Of a stretch of 32,000 bases of DNA, positions 1 through 15,199 are shown piece after piece. The stretch is taken from positions 30,001 to 62,000 of the forward strand of contig JBAZYG010000001.1 of the NCBI GenBank assembly GCA_041659445.1, given 5' to 3'. The number at the start of each line of letters is the position of its first letter. Position 1 is the stretch's first letter. The translations under genes and the position numbers were made by a program. The notes beneath the pieces are model-generated. The model worked only from the letters and a program-made list of their open reading frames with translations, searched no databases and had not been told where the DNA came from. The DNA comes from Candidatus Saccharimonadota bacterium (GTDB taxonomy: Archaea > Nanobdellota > Nanobdellia > Pacearchaeales > GW2011-AR1).

Positions 1-2373
1 GAAAATAAAATTCATTCAGAATTTCCTTTAATGCCTGTTGATGTTAAAACAACTTATAATGACTGGAAAAAAATATTTGATAAGTTTGAAATTAATGATG
101 AAAGTATTTTAATTGGTCATAGTAGGGGCACTGCTTTTTTGGTAAAATGGTTGGGAGAAACTAAAAAGAAAGTTAAAAAATTAATTCTTGTTGCTCCTTG
201 GAAATTTGCAGATAAAAAACATAAAGAAACTTTTTATGATTTTAAAATTGATAATGAAATTAAAAATAGAATTAATGAAATAATAATTTTTACTTCAAAC
301 GATGAAGAAAAAGATGGAAAAAACAGTGTAAAAATTTTTTATGATTCTTTAGGCGGAAAAAAAATTGAATTAAAAAATCACGGACATTTTACTTTAGAAG
401 ATATGAAAACTGAAGAATTTCCTGAATTATTGAATGAAATTATAAAAAATCAGAAATGGCCAATTTTTACAACTCGTCCTGATACTATTTTTGGAGTTAC
501 TTTTTTAGTTATTTCAGCACAGCATCCTAGACTTTTTGAAATTGTTACTAAAGAACAAAAAAAAGAAGTTGAGAATTTTTTGAAAAAATTAAAATCTGTT
601 AGTGAAAAAGAGTTGCATCGAATCGAAGTCTCAGGAACAGAGTTCCTGGACTCGTCCTCGGAAGACCGAGAACGAAAGGAAGGGGTTTTCACAGGAAGTT
701 ATGCAATTAATCCTATTAATAATGAAAAAGTTCCAGTTTATGCTGGAAATTTTGTCGTCGCTGATTATGGCTGTGGAATGGTTATGGCTGTTCCTGCTCA
801 TGATCAAAGAGATTTTGAATTTGCAAAAAAATATAATTTAAAAATAAATCCTGTGATAATTCCTAGGCAAGATTATATAGATAGTTCTATTTTTAAATAC
901 TCTAAGTTTATTCCAAAATATTCTAATAAGCATTTTAGATTACCTTTTATTACAAATGAAGAAGAAAGAGAGGCTTGGGATTTTTTAAATGATCTTACAA
1001 AGAAGATTAAGAAAGGAGAAATTTGTTATACTGATGAAGAAGGTATATTAATCAATTCCGATAAATTTAATAATATATTTCAAGACCCTGCGATTGTAGA
1101 AATTCCTTTGTTTTTACAAAAAAAAGGTTTGGCAAAACATAATGTTTGTCAATATAAATTAAGAGATTGGTTAATTTCGCGTCAGAGATATTGGGGAACA
1201 CCCATACCTATTGTTTATTGTGATAAATGTGGAATTGTTCCAGTTTTGGAAAAAGACTTGCCTGTTAAATTACCTAAAGAGGTAAAGTTTGGAAAAGGAA
1301 ATCCTTTAGAGACAAATGAAAAATGGATAAATACAAAGTGTCCTAAATGTAAAGGAAAGGCAAGAAGAGAAACAGATACAATGGATACTTTTGTAAATTC
1401 TTCTTGGTATTTTTTAAGATATTGTGATTTTAATAATTCTAAAAAAATATTCGACGAGAAAAAAGTGAAATATTGGATGCCTATTGATTTGTATATTGGT
1501 GGAGCAGAACATGCTTGTATGCATTTAATTTATTGCAGATTTTATACTAAATTTTTGAGAGACTTGGGTTTATTGAATTTTGATGAACCTGCTAAAAAAT
1601 TATTTCATCAGGGAATGTTGCACGGAGAAGATGGAGAAAAAATGAGTAAGTCAAGTGGAAATACTGTTGATCCTATTGATGTTATTAAAAAATATTCTGC
1701 TGATTCTTTGAGGTTAGCTCTTATGAGTTTTGCTTCTCCAGATTCAGATACTAATTGGGATGAAAATGTTTTAATTGGAAATTACAAATTTTTGAATAAA
1801 GTTTATAGTAAGTTTGAAAACATTAAATTTGAAAAATCAGACGCAAAAACAGAAAGCAAATTAAATCAAACAATAAAAAAAGTTTCAGAAAATATTGAAA
1901 ATTTAAAATATAATCTAGCAATAATTTCTCTTCGTTCTTTTTTTGAAGGTTTGCCTGAAAAAACAAGCAAAGATGTTATTGAGAAGTTCTTGAAACTTTT
2001 AAGCCCTTTTTGTCCACATGTTTCAGAAGAATTATGGGAAAAAATTGGAAATAAGGGTTTTGTTTCTTTGGAAAAATGGCCAGAAGTTGATGAAAAAAAG
2101 ATAAATGAAAATTTCAATAAAGCAGAAGAAATGATTGAAAAATTATCTAATGATATAAATAATGTAATAAAAATTCTTGATAAAAAATCAAACAAGGTTT
2201 TTGTCTATTGTTTACCTAATGAATTAAATTTGTATAAAGAAGAATTAAATTTGATTAAAAAGAAAACAAATTTAAATGTTGAGATTTATGCTGTTAATGA
2301 TGTAAAGAAGCATGATCCAGAAAATAAATCCAAAAAAGCAAAGCCTGGTAAGCCTGCAATTTATTTAGAATAA
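1..2373 (+). CDS. leuS: 5'-partial fusion ORF: YdeN/RBBP9-like alpha/beta serine hydrolase domain (nt 1-450) joined in frame to bacterial-type leucyl-tRNA synthetase running from the CP1 editing domain to the C-terminus (nt 451-2373)
   Basis: The frame is open from nt 1, with no stop before the ATG at 31. The N-part has the GHSRG nucleophile elbow, FTSNDE, NHGHF and a TEEFPELL tail typical of the YdeN serine-hydrolase family. From aa 141 the LeuRS motifs are IFTTRPDTIFGVTF, AVPAHDQRD, RDWLISRQRYWGTPIP, GGAEHACMHLIYCRF and KMSKS. No HIGH motif is present in the visible part. Confidence 0.85.
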   Translation, partial: ENKIHSEFPLMPVDVKTTYNDWKKIFDKFEINDESILIGHSRGTAFLVKWLGETKKKVKKLILVAPWKFADKKHKETFYDFKIDNEIKNRINEIIIFTSNDEEKDGKNSVKIFYDSLGGKKIELKNHGHFTLEDMKTEEFPELLNEIIKNQKWPIFTTRPDTIFGVTFLVISAQHPRLFEIVTKEQKKEVENFLKKLKSVSEKELHRIEVSGTEFLDSSSEDRERKEGVFTGSYAINPINNEKVPVYAGNFVVADYGCGMVMAVPAHDQRDFEFAKKYNLKINPVIIPRQDYIDSSIFKYSKFIPKYSNKHFRLPFITNEEEREAWDFLNDLTKKIKKGEICYTDEEGILINSDKFNNIFQDPAIVEIPLFLQKKGLAKHNVCQYKLRDWLISRQRYWGTPIPIVYCDKCGIVPVLEKDLPVKLPKEVKFGKGNPLETNEKWINTKCPKCKGKARRETDTMDTFVNSSWYFLRYCDFNNSKKIFDEKKVKYWMPIDLYIGGAEHACMHLIYCRFYTKFLRDLGLLNFDEPAKKLFHQGMLHGEDGEKMSKSSGNTVDPIDVIKKYSADSLRLALMSFASPDSDTNWDENVLIGNYKFLNKVYSKFENIKFEKSDAKTESKLNQTIKKVSENIENLKYNLAIISLRSFFEGLPEKTSKDVIEKFLKLLSPFCPHVSEELWEKIGNKGFVSLEKWPEVDEKKINENFNKAEEMIEKLSNDINNVIKILDKKSNKVFVYCLPNELNLYKEELNLIKKKTNLNVEIYAVNDVKKHDPENKSKKAKPGKPAIYLE
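628..675 (+). other. Two adjacent GC-rich hairpins (628-651 and 652-675) occupying exactly 16 in-frame codons inside the leuS CP1 region
   Basis: Hairpin 1 is gtc-t-caggaac / aga / gttcctg-gac, 10 bp with a 1-nt bulge. Hairpin 2 is tcgt-c-ctcgg / aaga / ccgag-a-acga, 9 bp with one mismatch. Codons used here (cga, ctg, tcg, gac, gag, ttc) are atypical for this AT-rich genome. Confidence 0.6.
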
Positions 2374-2843
2374 TGGAAAAAAACAACTTGTTAAAAGATT
2401 TTGAAAGAGAATTTGAAAAATTTAAAAAAGAATATAAATTCAAGGCAAGTTTTGAAGAACTTGAAAAAGAATTTTCAATTAAAGACTTTGTTCTTGAAGA
2501 AGGATTTGTAAGAGAAGATTTTTCTATTTCGATTTGTTTAAGAATTGTTGATCATTTTAGAAATTGGGCAGGTTATTTGAATAATTTGCTTTTACCAAAT
2601 CCAAGTTTTATGGTTAGTTCTACAGAAGCAAAATTATTCAATTCTGAAAAAGATAGAAAAGAAATTTGGGAAGTTATTAAGAAATGTATGTATTTTTCAA
2701 GTAAGCATTCTTTAATTACGTTGAATAAGGACGATAAAATTCAAGCAGAATTTATTGATGAAGCTTTGAATTCTTGGAAAAATTATGTCAAGCCTTTTGT
2801 TAAAAAAACAATGCAAAGAATTTTTGATGCTTGGAAAGAATAG
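2373..2843 (+). CDS. hypothetical protein (156 aa), start overlaps the leuS stop (TAATG)
   Basis: Long ORF with native AT-rich codon usage. It is translationally coupled to leuS through a 1-nt overlap. I recognise no motif. Confidence 0.6.
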   Translation: MEKNNLLKDFEREFEKFKKEYKFKASFEELEKEFSIKDFVLEEGFVREDFSISICLRIVDHFRNWAGYLNNLLLPNPSFMVSSTEAKLFNSEKDRKEIWEVIKKCMYFSSKHSLITLNKDDKIQAEFIDEALNSWKNYVKPFVKKTMQRIFDAWKE

Positions 2844-2912: not shown

Positions 2913-3650
2913 ATGACAAATGCACAACCAAGAATTGAAAGAGCAACAATAAAATTGTGGGTTCCACATAATGATAAAGAAATTGCATTCATTTATCCTG
3001 CAGTTGGACCAAACACTTATTTAAATGTTGGAAAAGTAATATTAGGAAAAGGAATGAATGTTCCAACAGGAGATGAAACAGCTTCTTTGCTTTATTCTGC
3101 ATATTGTTCTGAATTGACAAATGAATCTGAATTTCAAGATGTAAAAAACATAATGGAAAAGAATTGGCTTTGGGTTTATAATCAAGATTTATGGACTGAT
3201 AAAGGTGTTTTTGTTGTAAAAGATTTAAAATCACTTGGAATAAGTCCATTTTTAAATGTTAATGAACTAGAAAAAAAGATATTAAAAGAAAATAATGCAA
3301 GAGAAATAAAAGGAATAAAATTCAGTGAAGATGGTTTAGTTAGATTTGCTCCTAAAGGAAGTTATACTCTCAGGAAAGTGTCTTCAGAAGATTTTGTAAA
3401 AAATGGATTTATAATTGCAAGTTGTGGAGAAAAAGGAGCAGAAAAACTTGGAGAAGTTTCTACTAAATTTAAAAATAAGCCTTATATTTATGGGTTAAAC
3501 ATTGAAGAAGGAAAATCACATGAACAAAGAATCTCTGCTGTCAGCGAGAGTGGTGATGGGTTCAACTTCAGTGGCTACGGTTGTGGTGGCGACTACAGGT
3601 GCCGTGCTTTGGGGTATGCGCAGACTAATTACTCACTCATTCAACAATAG
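2913..3650 (+). CDS. hypothetical protein (245 aa) with a compositionally aberrant Gly/Cys/Tyr-rich C-terminal tail
   Basis: Long ORF. The last ~35 codons (about 3540-3630) switch to GC-rich codons (ggc, tac, gac, tgc, cgt, gcg, cag). The ORF overlaps the convergent alaS 3' end by 14 nt. Confidence 0.55.
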   Translation: MTNAQPRIERATIKLWVPHNDKEIAFIYPAVGPNTYLNVGKVILGKGMNVPTGDETASLLYSAYCSELTNESEFQDVKNIMEKNWLWVYNQDLWTDKGVFVVKDLKSLGISPFLNVNELEKKILKENNAREIKGIKFSEDGLVRFAPKGSYTLRKVSSEDFVKNGFIIASCGEKGAEKLGEVSTKFKNKPYIYGLNIEEGKSHEQRISAVSESGDGFNFSGYGCGGDYRCRALGYAQTNYSLIQQ

Positions 3651-5361
3651 CCTTAATTCTTCTAACACCAGAAGAACTACTTTCTTCTTTAATTATTTTA
3701 AATTTTCCGATTTCTGAAGTATTTTTGACATGCGGACCTGTGCAAATTTCTTTTGAAAATTTTCCTATTGTATAAACAGAAACTTTGTTTCCATATTTGC
3801 TTTCAAATATTCCTTCTGCATGAGATTTTCTTGCTTGTTCCAATGACATTTCTTCTCGAATAACTGGAATTTTATTTTTTATTTGTTCATTTACCAAATT
3901 TTCAACATCTTGGATTTCTTTTTCTGTAAGTTTTCTTGAAAATGAAAAATCCAATCTTAATCTTTCTGGAGTTATATTTGAACCTTTTTGAATAATTTCT
4001 GAATTGTTTAAAACTTTTTTTAAAGATGCCAAAAGAAGATGTGCTGCAGTGTGTAATTTTGTTGTTTGTTCGCTGTGGTCTGCTAATCCTGATTTAAAAA
4101 CTCCTGCACTTGCTGTTTTTGATAATTCTTGATGTTTTTCTACTAAAGCTCCTGAGGCTGTTAAATCAAATGACAAATTTTTTTCTTTTGCTAATTCTTT
4201 TGTCATTTCAATTGGAAATCCGTAAGATTGATGTAATAAAAATCCGTCTTTTCCAGAAAGTTCTTTTTTATTTTGAGTCATTTTTTCAAAAATTTTCAAA
4301 CCATTTTCAAGAGTTAAATTAAATTTATCTTCTTCCTTTTGCAATTCGTTTAGTATTTTATCTTTGTTAAATTTGTAATCTTTGTAAATTTCAAAAACAG
4401 ATTCTGCAATTTTTGTTGTAAAATTTGTTAAATTTAATTTTCTTCCATAAATTATTGCTCTTCTTATTAATCTTCTTAAAATATATCCTTGTTCTTTATT
4501 TGAAGGAATTATCCCGTCGTGTATTAAAAAAACAGAAGCCTTTATGTGATCTGCAATTATTCTCATTATTTTTGTTTCTTCTTTATTTTTTCCATATTTT
4601 TTTTCAGATAATTTTTCTATTTTTTCAATTATTGGTTTCCACATATCTGCTAAATAATTGTCTTTTAATCCAGATAGAATCGCAACAGTTCTTTCAACCC
4701 CCATTCCTGTATCTACATTTTTTTGTTTTAATTCAGAGATTATCCATTTTTCACTTCCTTTTTTATCTATTTCTCTTTTTTCTAAATTCCATTCCATAAA
4801 AACATCATTCCAAATTTCGACATTATTCACAAACATTTCTGTATCTGGTCCACAAGGACCTATTTCTCCAGCAGGGCCCCACCAATTATCTTTTCCAGAT
4901 AAGAATTTAATTTTTTTTATTCCTAAAGATTTCCAAGTATTTGCTGATTCATCGTCTTTATTTGATTTAAAAAATTTCCCATTACCATTAAAGCAGGTTA
5001 CTGCTAATTTTTCTTTTGGAATATTAAGAAATTTTGTCAAGAATTCAAAACTATATTCAATTGCCTGTTTTTTCCCATAATCTCCCAAAGACCAGTTTCC
5101 AAGCATTTCAAAAAACGTGTGATGAATTTCATCTCCGACTTCATCAATATCTTTAGTTCTTATACATTTTTGTAATCCGACTAGTCTTTTTCCTTGAGGG
5201 TGTTTTTGCCCTAATAAAAATGGAACTAACGGATGCATTCCAGCTGTTGTAAATAATACTGTTGGGTCGTTTTCTGGAATCAATGAATGATTTTCAATTA
5301 TTTCATGATCTTTCTTTTTAAAAAATTCAAGATATTTTTGTATTAATTCTGTTCTTTTCAT
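3637..5361 (-). CDS. alaS: alanyl-tRNA synthetase, short bacterial-like form (catalytic, tRNA-recognition and editing domains; no C-Ala domain)
   Basis: Core motifs are FTTAGMHP, GPCGPDTEMF and WNDVFMEWN. Editing motifs are HxxxH (HTAAHLL) and CxxxH (CTGPHV). The protein is 574 aa and ends shortly after the editing domain. Confidence 0.9.
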   Translation of the reverse strand: MKRTELIQKYLEFFKKKDHEIIENHSLIPENDPTVLFTTAGMHPLVPFLLGQKHPQGKRLVGLQKCIRTKDIDEVGDEIHHTFFEMLGNWSLGDYGKKQAIEYSFEFLTKFLNIPKEKLAVTCFNGNGKFFKSNKDDESANTWKSLGIKKIKFLSGKDNWWGPAGEIGPCGPDTEMFVNNVEIWNDVFMEWNLEKREIDKKGSEKWIISELKQKNVDTGMGVERTVAILSGLKDNYLADMWKPIIEKIEKLSEKKYGKNKEETKIMRIIADHIKASVFLIHDGIIPSNKEQGYILRRLIRRAIIYGRKLNLTNFTTKIAESVFEIYKDYKFNKDKILNELQKEEDKFNLTLENGLKIFEKMTQNKKELSGKDGFLLHQSYGFPIEMTKELAKEKNLSFDLTASGALVEKHQELSKTASAGVFKSGLADHSEQTTKLHTAAHLLLASLKKVLNNSEIIQKGSNITPERLRLDFSFSRKLTEKEIQDVENLVNEQIKNKIPVIREEMSLEQARKSHAEGIFESKYGNKVSVYTIGKFSKEICTGPHVKNTSEIGKFKIIKEESSSSGVRRIKAIVE

Positions 5362-15061: not shown

Positions 15062-15199
15062 AGGCCTGTCGTTCAACGGATAGGATCTCAGGTTTCGGTC
15101 GTGGGGAACCAAGTTTCCCCGAACGGTCTCCCCTCCTTTTTTTGGGAAGATAGAAACGGAAGAACCCTGATGATGGGGGTTCGATTCCCTCCAGGCCTG
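15062..15199 (+). tRNA. tRNA-Arg(UCG) with a 66-nt intron at the canonical 37/38 position
   Basis: The acceptor stem is AGGCCTG/CAGGCCT (7 bp) and the T arm is GGGGG-TTCGATT-CCCTC. The anticodon stem is TCAGG (15088-92) with CCTGA (15166-70), and the loop is TT-TCG-G|intron|C. The discriminator is G, no CCA is encoded, and a T6 run follows. The D stem is weak (two G-U pairs). Confidence 0.75.
15099..15164 (+). other. tRNA intron bounded by an hBHBh' splicing motif
   Basis: A 4-bp central helix (15093-96 tttc with 15159-62 gaag) is flanked by 3-nt bulges (15097-99 ggt and 15163-65 aac). An outer helix pairs 15100-02 with 15156-58. The interior holds the ggggaa/ttcccc hairpin (15103-15120) and a T7 run (15137-15143). 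Confidence 0.65.

What the first reader, a model, noticed from the sequence alone, without database searches (positions are those of the whole stretch)
1..2373. Serine-hydrolase domain fused in frame to a LeuRS that begins at the CP1 editing domain
Seen in the sequence: the frame is open from nt 1. Residues 1-140 carry YdeN-type serine-hydrolase motifs (GHSRG, NHGHF and the family's natural C-terminal EFPELL tail). With no stop or linker, residue 141 onward is LeuRS, starting at the strand that leads into CP1 (KWPIFTTRPDT).

Established knowledge: in E. coli-type LeuRS roughly 240 residues precede TTRPDT, namely the first Rossmann half with HIGH and the Zn module. None of that is visible here.

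Inference: there are three possible explanations.
(a) A hydrolase domain is inserted into LeuRS just before CP1, and the LeuRS N-half lies off-window upstream.
(b) The LeuRS is split, conceptually like the Aquifex alpha/beta enzyme but at another site, and its C-fragment has captured a hydrolase.
(c) The junction is a chimeric assembly or the gene is decaying.
Intact editing residues (TTRPDT, AHDQRD) and an intact KMSKS argue against decay. An ester hydrolase fused next to an aminoacyl-tRNA editing domain would be a new architecture.
Basis: partly seen in the sequence, partly recalled or inferred. Interest (0 to 1): 0.7.

Follow-up and report, generated by a model that had tools for sequence, protein, structure and literature searches.

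The report
Roving serine hydrolase inserted in LeuRS
The window cuts through a complete leucyl-tRNA synthetase of a tiny DPANN archaeon that carries a whole, apparently active serine hydrolase inside its proofreading domain; the same hydrolase recurs as a movable partner of this synthetase gene in ultra-small archaea and bacteria, which hints at an unknown link between the two enzymes.

Summary
The full gene is one 1065-aa ORF (100% match, Candidatus Pacearchaeota MAG). Its first 275 residues, with HIGH and the Zn module, lie upstream. A ~189-aa RBBP9/YdeN-family serine hydrolase is inserted in the first beta-hairpin of CP1, so reader option (a) holds. Split gene, chimera and decay are excluded.

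All synthetic and editing motifs are intact. The hydrolase Ser and His are invariant in 167 cassettes, and the acidic residue is E/D in 160.

The cassette is not fixed to this site. In DPANN and CPR genomes it is mostly a free ~190-aa gene. It is also a translationally coupled neighbour of leuS, is inserted at four or more LeuRS loops, and occurs rarely in a ValRS-like synthetase, UvrB, Der and a glycosyltransferase. Its phylogeny is decoupled from the LeuRS core.

Some relatives also carry NUDIX, HAD or a second hydrolase. Function is inferred only: RBBP9 cleaves aminoacyl-X bonds that have a free alpha-amine.

I found no publication on this.

Separately, nt 628-681 is a small GC-rich in-frame element that also occurs in gyrA and rpl24 genes.

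The parts
1..2373 (+). 3' part of leuS: residues 276-1065 of a 1065-aa bacterial-type LeuRS, stop included. The first 825 nt of the gene lie upstream of the window (L001 10001-10825).
   Evidence: full protein scores 862 bits on TIGR00396 leuS_bact, cutoff 548
1..456 (+). C-terminal 152 of ~189 residues of the inserted RBBP9/YdeN-type serine hydrolase cassette (P0001 residues ~239-427). The first ~36 residues, with the HG oxyanion motif, are off-window.
   Evidence: Pfam PF06821; profile hits to YdeN 1UXO E=5e-22 and RBBP9 2QS9 E=7e-19; AF2 pLDDT about 80-93 over the insert
121..123 (+). Codon of the predicted nucleophile Ser (GHSRG; P0001 S316)
   Evidence: invariant in 167/167 cassettes
301..306 (+). 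Codons D-E of TSNDEE: the predicted acidic triad member (E, P0001 E377) and its neighbour
   Evidence: column is E or D in 160/167 cassettes and in 72/75
385..387 (+). Codon of the predicted catalytic His (NHGHF; P0001 H404)
   Evidence: invariant in 167/167 cassettes
457..486 (+). Return to LeuRS: strand WPIF followed by the T-rich editing motif TTRPDT (469-486)
   Evidence: insert-free relative reads GTEINFEINGKKWPIFTTRPDT; T, T, R, D, T invariant in 60 sequences
628..681 (+). GC-rich in-frame mini-element (VSGTEFLDSSSEDRER + KG) in a CP1 surface loop. It is a second, independent insertion.
   Evidence: GC3 0.56 vs 0.16 for the gene; same element in gyrA and rpl24 of other contigs; predicted disordered
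796..813 (+). AHDQRD editing motif, with the Asp essential for post-transfer editing
   Evidence: H, D, R, D invariant in 60 sequences; role of the Asp from PMC4005665
862..1044 (+). Site-2 region of CP1, carrying about 42 extra residues peculiar to this lineage. It is the site where relatives carry NUDIX, an unnamed ~120-aa domain, or the hydrolase itself.
   Evidence: gap HDQRD->RDW is 121 residues here against 72-80 at baseline; no significant similarity to other site-2 inserts
1219..1356 (+). Zn knuckle CDKCG ... CPKCKG of the catalytic body (site 4 of relatives lies just after the first pair)
1639..1653 (+). KMSKS catalytic loop
2373..2843 (+). 156-aa ORF whose ATG overlaps the leuS stop by 1 nt. 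Function unknown; it is not a hydrolase.

Best explanation
The gene is a complete, working bacterial-type leucyl-tRNA synthetase of a Candidatus Pacearchaeota (DPANN) archaeon. The window starts in the middle of it. A whole RBBP9/YdeN-family alpha/beta serine hydrolase of about 189 residues is inserted at the tip of the first beta-hairpin of the CP1 editing domain, six residues before the T-rich editing motif.

Shown: it is a single ORF. HIGH, KMSKS, the Zn modules and the CP1 editing residues are intact. The insert is confidently predicted as a folded alpha/beta domain with a conserved HG...GHSxG...D/E...GHF catalytic set.

Also shown: the hydrolase is a relocatable partner of leuS rather than a fixed feature. 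In DPANN and CPR genomes the same enzyme occurs in four ways: (i) as a free ~190-aa gene, (ii) as a gene whose start overlaps or abuts the leuS stop, (iii) inserted in frame at four or more different LeuRS loops, and (iv) rarely inside other housekeeping proteins. Its phylogeny is decoupled from that of the LeuRS core.

Inferred: LeuRS still charges and proofreads tRNA-Leu, and the insert works as an independent second hydrolytic site tethered to CP1. By analogy with RBBP9, it probably cleaves alpha-aminoacyl-X bonds (ester, amide or thioester) of hydrophobic amino acids that have a free alpha-amine. Selection probably keeps it with LeuRS, and once with a ValRS-like synthetase, because the two enzymes share a substrate or product: leucine released from peptides or esters, or leucyl-like esters that must be cleared.

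My probabilities: architecture about 0.97; association with leuS is selected rather than accidental about 0.7; aminoacyl-X chemistry about 0.5.
For: Single ORF with the N-half upstream. leuS_bact 862 bits against cutoff 548. Model pLDDT 84.9, pTM 0.71, best structural matches bacterial LeuRS with TM 0.73-0.81. Editing and synthetic residues invariant in 60 sequences with or without the insert. Insert is YdeN/RBBP9 family. Triad conservation. Census of 80 species-representative loci gives 58 free, 17 in LeuRS (plus L073, a LeuRS fragment), in both DPANN and CPR. Four LeuRS sites. leuS adjacency in 6 of 58 free loci with a 0-1 nt gap or overlap. I estimate about 0.6 expected by chance. Recent relocation: L010 (adjacent) and P0032 (embedded) share 77% core and 73% cassette identity, each the other's best match. 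Decoupled history: insert against any core block r about 0, core blocks r 0.41-0.66, insert halves r 0.50. Patchy presence, 16 parsimony changes in 110 taxa. RBBP9 forms acyl-enzymes with Leu/Ile, Phe, Tyr and Trp and needs a free alpha-amine (PMC8866121). It is also cited as a valacyclovir (L-valyl ester) hydrolase (reference 5 of PMC7730578).
Against: No activity was measured. The substrate is inferred from a distant relative (about 25-30% identity), and I found no conserved counterpart of RBBP9's alpha-amine anchor Glu108. Most copies of the enzyme (52 of 58 free ones) are not next to leuS. The cassette also sits in UvrB, Der and a GT2 glycosyltransferase, where no shared chemistry is apparent. 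Four different LeuRS sites argue against a need for precise geometry. LeuRS of these organisms also hosts NUDIX, HAD and other inserts, so it may simply be a permissive scaffold. The census started from a LeuRS-embedded query, so it is biased towards leuS-linked copies. I did not test whether this LeuRS is the only one in the genome.
Confidence: 0.55

Rival explanations
1. Passenger domain with no shared chemistry. The hydrolase is a compact, self-folding housekeeping enzyme that has repeatedly been captured in frame by large, constitutively expressed essential genes in tiny genomes. This could be for expression economy, by drift, or as a semi-selfish element that is hard to delete precisely. 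LeuRS is just the most permissive host.
For: Same cassette in UvrB, Der, GT2 and a ValRS-like synthetase. LeuRS relatives also carry NUDIX, HAD, a second abhydrolase and an unnamed domain. Four different LeuRS sites. Cassette history decoupled from the host. The same gene even holds a second, unrelated in-frame mini-element. Most copies are free and away from leuS.
Against: Six of 58 free copies are translationally coupled to leuS on either side, and independent insertions converge on LeuRS far more often than on any other host. The catalytic residues stay invariant in every context, so the domain is kept for its activity. No mobility machinery or terminal repeats were seen.
Confidence: 0.3
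2. A second proofreading site. The hydrolase deacylates mischarged tRNA-Leu, or clears leucyl-adenylate-like compounds, beside CP1. It would be a new alpha/beta-hydrolase type of cis/trans editing factor.
For: Sites 1-3 are all in CP1, next in sequence to the T-rich and HDQRD motifs. The family cleaves aminoacyl-X bonds with a free alpha-amine, which is the chemistry of deacylation. Hosts include LeuRS and a ValRS-like synthetase, both of which need editing of hydrophobic near-cognates. There is operon coupling with leuS.
Against: CP1's own editing residues remain invariant whether or not the cassette is present, so nothing is being replaced. Site 4 lies outside CP1. Variable sites imply no fixed path for the CCA end. 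The insert has no evident tRNA-binding feature. Most copies are free-standing and far from leuS.
Confidence: 0.15
3. Split LeuRS whose C-fragment captured a hydrolase (reader option b).
For: Only the window-edge appearance, plus two database proteins that start at the hydrolase (P0007, P0029).
Against: One continuous 1065-aa ORF in L001. The P0007 and P0029 loci hold full 1034-aa and 1141-aa ORFs with the N-half in frame.
Confidence: 0.01
4. Chimeric assembly or decaying gene (reader option c).
For: None beyond the unusual architecture.
Against: Two assemblies agree. About 70 homologues from independent samples share the junction. All catalytic motifs of both enzymes are conserved. The model is confident.
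Confidence: 0.01

Closest known systems
Bacterial-type LeuRS in archaea (Natrialba magadii NmLeuRS1/2; Fang et al. 2014, PMC4005665)
   Same: An archaeon using a LeuRS whose Rossmann fold, CP1 insertion point and helix bundle are of the bacterial type. The CP1 Asp is required for post-transfer editing.
   Different: The haloarchaeal enzymes have no foreign catalytic domain in CP1. Here a ~189-aa serine hydrolase sits in the first CP1 hairpin, and relatives add NUDIX, HAD or other modules. I did not test whether the C-terminal domain here is of the archaeal type.
RBBP9 (human; PDB 2QS9, 7OEX, 9FCR) and YdeN (B. subtilis; PDB 1UXO), Pfam PF06821
   Same: Same small alpha/beta-hydrolase family, same size (~190 aa), same Ser/Asp-or-Glu/His arrangement with a GHSxG elbow.
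   Different: Those are free-standing proteins. Here the domain is nested inside another enzyme. Identity is low (profile E values 1e-19 to 1e-22). The acid is Glu in this copy, and substrate-anchoring residues of RBBP9 are not recognisably conserved.
aaRSs with an extra catalytic domain, e.g. IleRS with a GNAT domain (NCBIfam NF040702), and eukaryotic aaRSs with appended domains (the latter from my own knowledge)
   Same: A class Ia synthetase carrying an additional enzyme-like module while keeping its core.
   Different: Here the module is inserted inside the editing domain rather than appended. It occupies several alternative sites, and it also exists as the operon neighbour of the same gene.
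Aquifex aeolicus alpha/beta split LeuRS
   Same: An unusual LeuRS gene structure with a discontinuity near CP1.
   Different: This is not a split gene. It is a single polypeptide with an insertion.
Free-standing trans-editing or detoxifying hydrolases (AlaX, YbaK/ProXp, DTD; MccF, which cleaves aminoacyl-nucleotide antibiotics). Comparison from my own knowledge.
   Same: Possible functional analogy: a separate hydrolase clearing aminoacyl esters or amides linked to an aaRS.
   Different: There is no sequence or fold relationship. No activity has been shown here.
Rickettsia palindromic elements (in-frame selfish repeats in protein genes; from my own knowledge, Ogata et al. 2000). This comparison concerns the 628-681 mini-element only.
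   Same: A short hairpin-forming element found in frame in unrelated housekeeping genes.
   Different: It is much shorter (~45-51 nt), GC-rich in an AT-rich archaeal genome, and low in copy number (one copy in 32 kb). No homology was tested.

Membership tests
Bacterial-type leucyl-tRNA synthetase (TIGR00396 leuS_bact) | Whole-protein score above the curated cutoff | tested here: met
   P0001 scores 862.3 bits against cutoff 548.4. The window fragment alone scores 517.8, below the cutoff only because it is truncated.
Bacterial-type leucyl-tRNA synthetase (TIGR00396 leuS_bact) | HIGH and KMSKS class I signatures | tested here: met
   HIGH at P0001 52-55 (off-window, L001 10154-10165). KMSKS at window nt 1639-1653.
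Bacterial-type leucyl-tRNA synthetase (TIGR00396 leuS_bact) | CP1 editing domain with the T-rich motif and the conserved Asp | tested here: met
   TTRPDT and AHDQRD present and invariant in 60 homologues. PF13603 scores 156 bits.
Bacterial-type leucyl-tRNA synthetase (TIGR00396 leuS_bact) | Fold matches solved bacterial LeuRS | tested here: met
   Foldseek best hits are T. thermophilus, N. gonorrhoeae and E. coli LeuRS, E about 1e-70, TM (target) 0.73-0.81.
Bacterial-type leucyl-tRNA synthetase (TIGR00396 leuS_bact) | Leucylation and editing activity; sole LeuRS of the cell | not testable with these tools
   This needs biochemistry and the complete genome. Only 32 kb plus 10 kb of context were read.
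RBBP9/YdeN serine hydrolase (Pfam PF06821) | Profile match above the gathering score | tested here: met
   35.5 bits against 22 for the window part. The cassette profile hits 1UXO at E=4.9e-22 and 2QS9 at E=7.2e-19.
RBBP9/YdeN serine hydrolase (Pfam PF06821) | Ser-His-acid triad with a GxSxG elbow and an HG oxyanion motif | tested here: met
   Ser 167/167, His 167/167, E/D 160/167, HG 165-167/167.
RBBP9/YdeN serine hydrolase (Pfam PF06821) | Compact alpha/beta fold | tested here: met
   The AF2 model shows an alternating strand/helix pattern over residues 247-423 with pLDDT about 80-93. I did not run a separate fold search of the insert alone.
RBBP9/YdeN serine hydrolase (Pfam PF06821) | Aminoacyl-X hydrolase or aminopeptidase activity with a free alpha-amine requirement | not testable with these tools
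   Known only for human RBBP9. The loop equivalent to the Glu108 anchor is variable here.
Split LeuRS (Aquifex alpha/beta type) | Two separate genes encoding the two parts | tested here: not met
   One ORF in L001, L002 and L003.
Intein | Cys/Ser/Thr at the first insert residue, His-Asn at its end, and a Cys/Ser/Thr +1 residue | tested here: not met
   The junctions read ...DFEI|SKENK... and ...IIKNQK|WPIF.... The +1 residue is W, F or K in relatives. No Hint or endonuclease Pfam hit.
Archaeal bulge-helix-bulge intron (considered for nt 628-675) | BHB motif at the borders; sequence not translated | tested here: not met
   No BHB was found by inspection. The peptide is in frame in every host, including the L24 tail where it is followed by the stop. 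Splicing itself cannot be tested here.

The most novel reading that the evidence does not exclude
The RBBP9/YdeN-type hydrolase is a previously unrecognised quality-control or salvage partner of class Ia synthetases in CPR bacteria and DPANN archaea. It would be an alpha/beta-hydrolase that cleaves aminoacyl esters (mischarged tRNA, aminoacyl-adenylate mimics or leucyl esters/peptides). It would have been recruited to LeuRS again and again as an operon neighbour or as an insertion in CP1, sometimes together with NUDIX and HAD modules, turning LeuRS into a multi-enzyme platform.
Probability: 0.2. Interest if true: 0.85.

Novelty: new variant of a known kind. Interest (0 to 1): 0.65.

Why it matters
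Aminoacyl-tRNA synthetases are among the best-studied enzymes, and the CP1 editing domain of LeuRS is a drug target. A second, intact hydrolytic active site nested in CP1 does not appear in the literature I could search (eight searches of about 8 million papers). It is conserved across many DPANN and CPR lineages and is interchangeable with an operon-neighbour arrangement.

If the link is functional, it points to a new proofreading, detoxifying or amino-acid-salvage activity in organisms that cannot make their own amino acids. It would also give the poorly understood YdeN/RBBP9 family a testable cellular context.

If the link is not functional, the case still documents an unusually mobile enzyme cassette, and a separate ~50-nt in-frame mini-element, colonising essential genes of ultra-small microbes. 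That bears on how proteins in reduced genomes acquire insertions.

Tried and rejected
1. **Split gene.** P0007 and P0029 seemed to start at the hydrolase. Their loci show full-length ORFs, so these are start-codon miscalls.
2. **Neighbouring free Ser_hydrolase as donor.** The gene at L001 4081-4641 is only 27% identical to the insert, so it is a different subfamily.
3. **Intein.** The junction residues do not fit.
4. **Flanking repeats or target-site duplications at the cassette borders.** Only AT-rich chance matches were found.
5. **A conserved counterpart of RBBP9's alpha-amine anchor.** The loop is variable, so this is inconclusive.
6. **The 156-aa ORF overlapping the leuS stop as a decayed hydrolase.** hhalign probability is 0.3%.
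7. **The extra ~42 aa at site 2 as a remnant of the ~120-aa domain of relatives.** There is no significant similarity.
8. **The GC-rich patch as a BHB intron or a known RNA.** No BHB was found, there is no Rfam hit at E<=1, and it is in frame in all hosts.
11. **Looking up the full protein by the window fragment** failed, as expected for a truncated sequence.
Full report
**1. The observation**

Frame 1 of the window is open from nt 1 to a stop at 2371-2373. Pfam places a Ser_hydrolase (PF06821) match at residues 31-134. It is followed directly by the LeuRS editing domain, the class I catalytic core and the anticodon-binding domain. NCBIfam's best model is bacterial-type LeuRS. The only correction is that LeuRS resumes at residue 153 (nt 457), not 141.

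**2. What lies upstream**

A search of the large protein collection returned a 100%-identical protein of 1065 aa, P0001, annotated from a Candidatus Pacearchaeota MAG with a 486-kb contig. NCBI taxonomy places Candidatus Pacearchaeota in Archaea, kingdom Nanobdellati.

- Its first 275 residues are the missing LeuRS N-half, with HIGH (52-55) and a CPSC...CERC Zn module.
- A second assembly (ENA, 18 kb; locus L001) carries the same single ORF and matches the window with 1 mismatch in 7,043 nt.
- The full protein scores 862 bits on leuS_bact, cutoff 548.
- An insert-free relative reads GTEINFEINGKKWPIFTTRPDT where P0001 has about 189 extra residues.

So the hydrolase is an internal insertion at the tip of the first beta-hairpin of CP1, which is reader option (a). 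Two database relatives that appeared to begin at the hydrolase are start-codon miscalls; their loci hold full ORFs of 1141 and 1034 aa. A split gene, a chimera and decay are all excluded.

**3. State of the two enzymes**

In an alignment of 60 homologues with and without the insert, the T-rich motif, HDxRD, KMSKS, the Zn-knuckle cysteines and much of the core are invariant.

An AlphaFold2 model of the full protein has mean pLDDT 84.9 and pTM 0.71. The insert is a confident alpha/beta domain with pLDDT about 80-93. The whole model superposes best on T. thermophilus, N. gonorrhoeae and E. coli LeuRS.

A profile of the insert hits B. subtilis YdeN (1UXO, E=5e-22) and human RBBP9 (2QS9, E=7e-19). 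Across 167 cassettes from all contexts, the nucleophile Ser and the His are invariant, the acidic position is E/D in 160, and the HG motif is essentially invariant. Both enzymes therefore look functional, and the insert adds to CP1 rather than replacing it.

**4. The cassette is not tied to this site**

- Among the 110 classifiable of the 120 best LeuRS homologues, 68 carry the hydrolase at site 1, 2 carry it at a second site after AHDQRD...KYxIxIK, and 40 carry none. Sixteen also have another insert at site 2, which is NUDIX in several.
- Presence is patchy on a core tree, with 16 parsimony changes. P0001's nearest cores lack the insert.
- Distance matrices of core blocks correlate with each other (r 0.41-0.66; CP1 0.22-0.27), and the two halves of the insert correlate (r 0.50). 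The insert against any core block gives r about 0. The cassette's history is therefore decoupled from its host's.

**5. Where else the cassette lives**

*Representative library.* A search of the window-encoded part against 1.84 billion representatives gave 578 hits.

- Many are free-standing proteins of 185-196 aa at up to 60% identity.
- Some are embedded in other hosts: a GT2 glycosyltransferase, UvrB (945 bits), Der/EngA (380 bits) and a ValRS-like synthetase (494 bits, below its 704 cutoff).

*Species-representative genomes.* A scan confirmed at least 521 loci in DPANN archaea and in CPR/Patescibacteria.

- In the best 80, 58 are free genes and 17 are inside LeuRS, plus one LeuRS fragment. 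Two are hydrolase-NUDIX fusions.
- LeuRS is colonised at four or more sites: before TTRPDT, after HDQRD, at the CP1 exit before RDW..RQRYWG, and in the Zn knuckle.
- Extreme cases: a Saccharibacteria LeuRS carries NUDIX, Ser_hydrolase and HAD together. A Woesearchaeota LeuRS carries two hydrolases in tandem plus NUDIX.

**6. Link to leuS**

In six of the 58 free loci, all DPANN, leuS lies next door on the same strand.

- In L010 the leuS stop overlaps the hydrolase ATG (GAATGAAAG).
- In L026, L077 and L024 one nucleotide separates them (TAAAATG).
- In L008 and L035 the hydrolase comes first and leuS follows at once.

For +/-4 kb windows in roughly 1-Mb genomes I estimate about 0.6 such cases by chance.

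These adjacent copies are most similar to site-1 embedded copies, at 73-75% identity. L010 (adjacent, insert-free LeuRS) and P0032 (embedded) share 77% LeuRS-core identity, each the other's best match. That documents a recent move between "next to" and "inside" leuS. L035 and L084 have both an embedded copy and an adjacent copy.

This is good evidence that the pairing with leuS is maintained by selection. Two caveats apply: the census started from a LeuRS-embedded query, and adjacency could be a by-product of relocation.

**7. Mechanism**

Shown: the architecture, intact active sites, relocation, and operon coupling.

Inferred: the chemistry. RBBP9 forms acyl-enzyme adducts with single hydrophobic amino acids (Leu/Ile, Phe, Tyr, Trp), needs a free alpha-amine, and is said to cleave amide, ester or thioester bonds to them (PMC8866121). 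It is also cited as a valacyclovir (L-valyl ester) hydrolase. An aminoacyl-X hydrolase beside LeuRS could feed leucine from peptides or esters to an auxotroph's synthetase, clear misacylated or toxic leucyl esters, or proofread tRNA.

I cannot separate these possibilities. The variable insertion sites and the other hosts argue against a geometry-dependent editing role, and I could not find a conserved counterpart of RBBP9's amine anchor. The main rival is a passenger domain with no shared chemistry.

**8. Comparison with what is known**

Bacterial-type LeuRS in archaea is known from haloarchaea (PMC4005665). Extra catalytic domains on class Ia synthetases are known, for example IleRS with GNAT (NCBIfam NF040702). 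Eight full-text searches found nothing on a serine hydrolase, NUDIX or HAD domain inside LeuRS, or on YdeN/RBBP9 linked to tRNA synthetases. The proteins are in public databases under generic names. I therefore rate it a new variant of a known kind.

**9. A second insertion in the same gene**

Nt 628-675 is a GC-rich in-frame addition of exactly 48 nt (GC3 0.56 against 0.16 for the gene), with conserved sequence running on to about nt 681. Removing those 48 nt restores the family consensus, and the loop is predicted disordered.

- Between two relatives it is 47/48 identical, against 77% for the whole gene.
- An exact-pattern scan of metagenomes found the same 27-nt block in frame in a GyrA C-terminal propeller and in the tail of archaeal ribosomal protein L24.
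- There is one copy in this window and no Rfam match.

It looks like a small insertion element that lands in coding sequence. I did not pursue it further.

Noticed in passing
window 628-681 (+); also L002 6727-6753, L084 2968-2994, L085 12553-12579, L086 2732-2758 (-), L087 1416-1442 (-): A GC-rich in-frame mini-element of ~45-51 nt (GTCTCNGGAACANAGTNCCNGGACTCG ... CGAAAG; peptide VSGT..DS...ERKG) sits in a disordered CP1 loop of LeuRS. It recurs in frame in a GyrA C-terminal domain and in the tail of archaeal ribosomal protein L24. GC3 is 0.56 against 0.16 for the gene. It resembles in-frame selfish repeats such as Rickettsia palindromic elements (comparison from my own knowledge).
   Followed up: partly
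L076 2177-6319; L050 3284-7297; P0005, P0012, P0018, P0027, P0050, P0059, P0068: LeuRS relatives carry further enzyme inserts. NUDIX with an intact Nudix box sits at site 2. One Saccharibacteria LeuRS has NUDIX + Ser_hydrolase + HAD (1381 aa). One Woesearchaeota LeuRS has two hydrolases in tandem plus NUDIX (1338 aa).
   Followed up: partly
L078 3989-4945; L083 3995-4963; P0127: Free-standing Ser_hydrolase-NUDIX fusion proteins (~320-370 aa) in CPR bacteria link the two enzyme types independently of LeuRS.
   Followed up: partly
P0128, P0162, P0226, P0271 (no window coordinates): The same hydrolase cassette (39-54% identical to the window's in P0128, P0162 and P0226; 34% for P0175, the representative of P0271's cluster) is inserted in loops of a GT2 glycosyltransferase, UvrB, the GTPase Der/EngA and a ValRS-like synthetase.
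   Followed up: partly
P0008, P0010, P0023, P0029, P0042, P0046, P0066, P0079, P0081 (site 2 of LeuRS): A ~115-145-aa insert with no Pfam match occupies site 2 of CP1 in several DPANN LeuRSs. There seem to be at least two sequence types. It is unidentified.
   Followed up: no
window 862-1044 (+): This LeuRS has about 42 extra residues at site 2, partly helical and partly disordered in the model. They show only weak similarity (E=0.1) to the equivalent segment of P0086.
   Followed up: partly
L001 4081-4641 (+), about 6 kb upstream of leuS: The same genome has a free-standing PF06821 paralogue (186 aa), only 27% identical to the insert. It lies next to a YjbQ gene and a class II aaRS gene.
   Followed up: partly
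L035 3998-4570 and 4573-7599; L084 1501-4671 and ~4670-5257: Two relatives have both a hydrolase embedded in LeuRS and a second hydrolase gene directly adjacent to leuS. The two copies are 41% identical in L035.
   Followed up: partly
L001 8999-9517 (-); L002 4621-5067 (-); L003 4684-5205 (-); L084 930-1448 (-): The tRNA-splicing endonuclease gene lies upstream of leuS and divergent from it in four related loci (directly adjacent in L084; a small ORF or an uncalled gap intervenes in the others). AlaRS lies a few kb downstream in two of them, so synteny is conserved.
   Followed up: no
window 3637-5361 (-): The AlaRS gene is only 574 aa (catalytic domain plus tRNA_SAD). That is short for an archaeal AlaRS, so it may be truncated or split.
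   Followed up: no
window 15062-15199 (+): A 138-nt tRNA match (Rfam 40.6 bits) has about 69 nt in place of the anticodon-loop centre, so it is probably an intron-containing tRNA. ARAGORN did not call it, and the anticodon was not determined.
   Followed up: no
window 2373-2843 (+): A 156-aa ORF starts 1 nt inside the leuS stop codon (TAATG). It has no Pfam match and is not related to the hydrolase.
   Followed up: partly
L002 5233-8658; L003 5272-8376: The deposited proteins P0029 (885 aa) and P0007 (791 aa) start at an internal Met in the hydrolase. The real ORFs are 1141 and 1034 aa, so the public annotation truncates the LeuRS N-half.
   Followed up: yes
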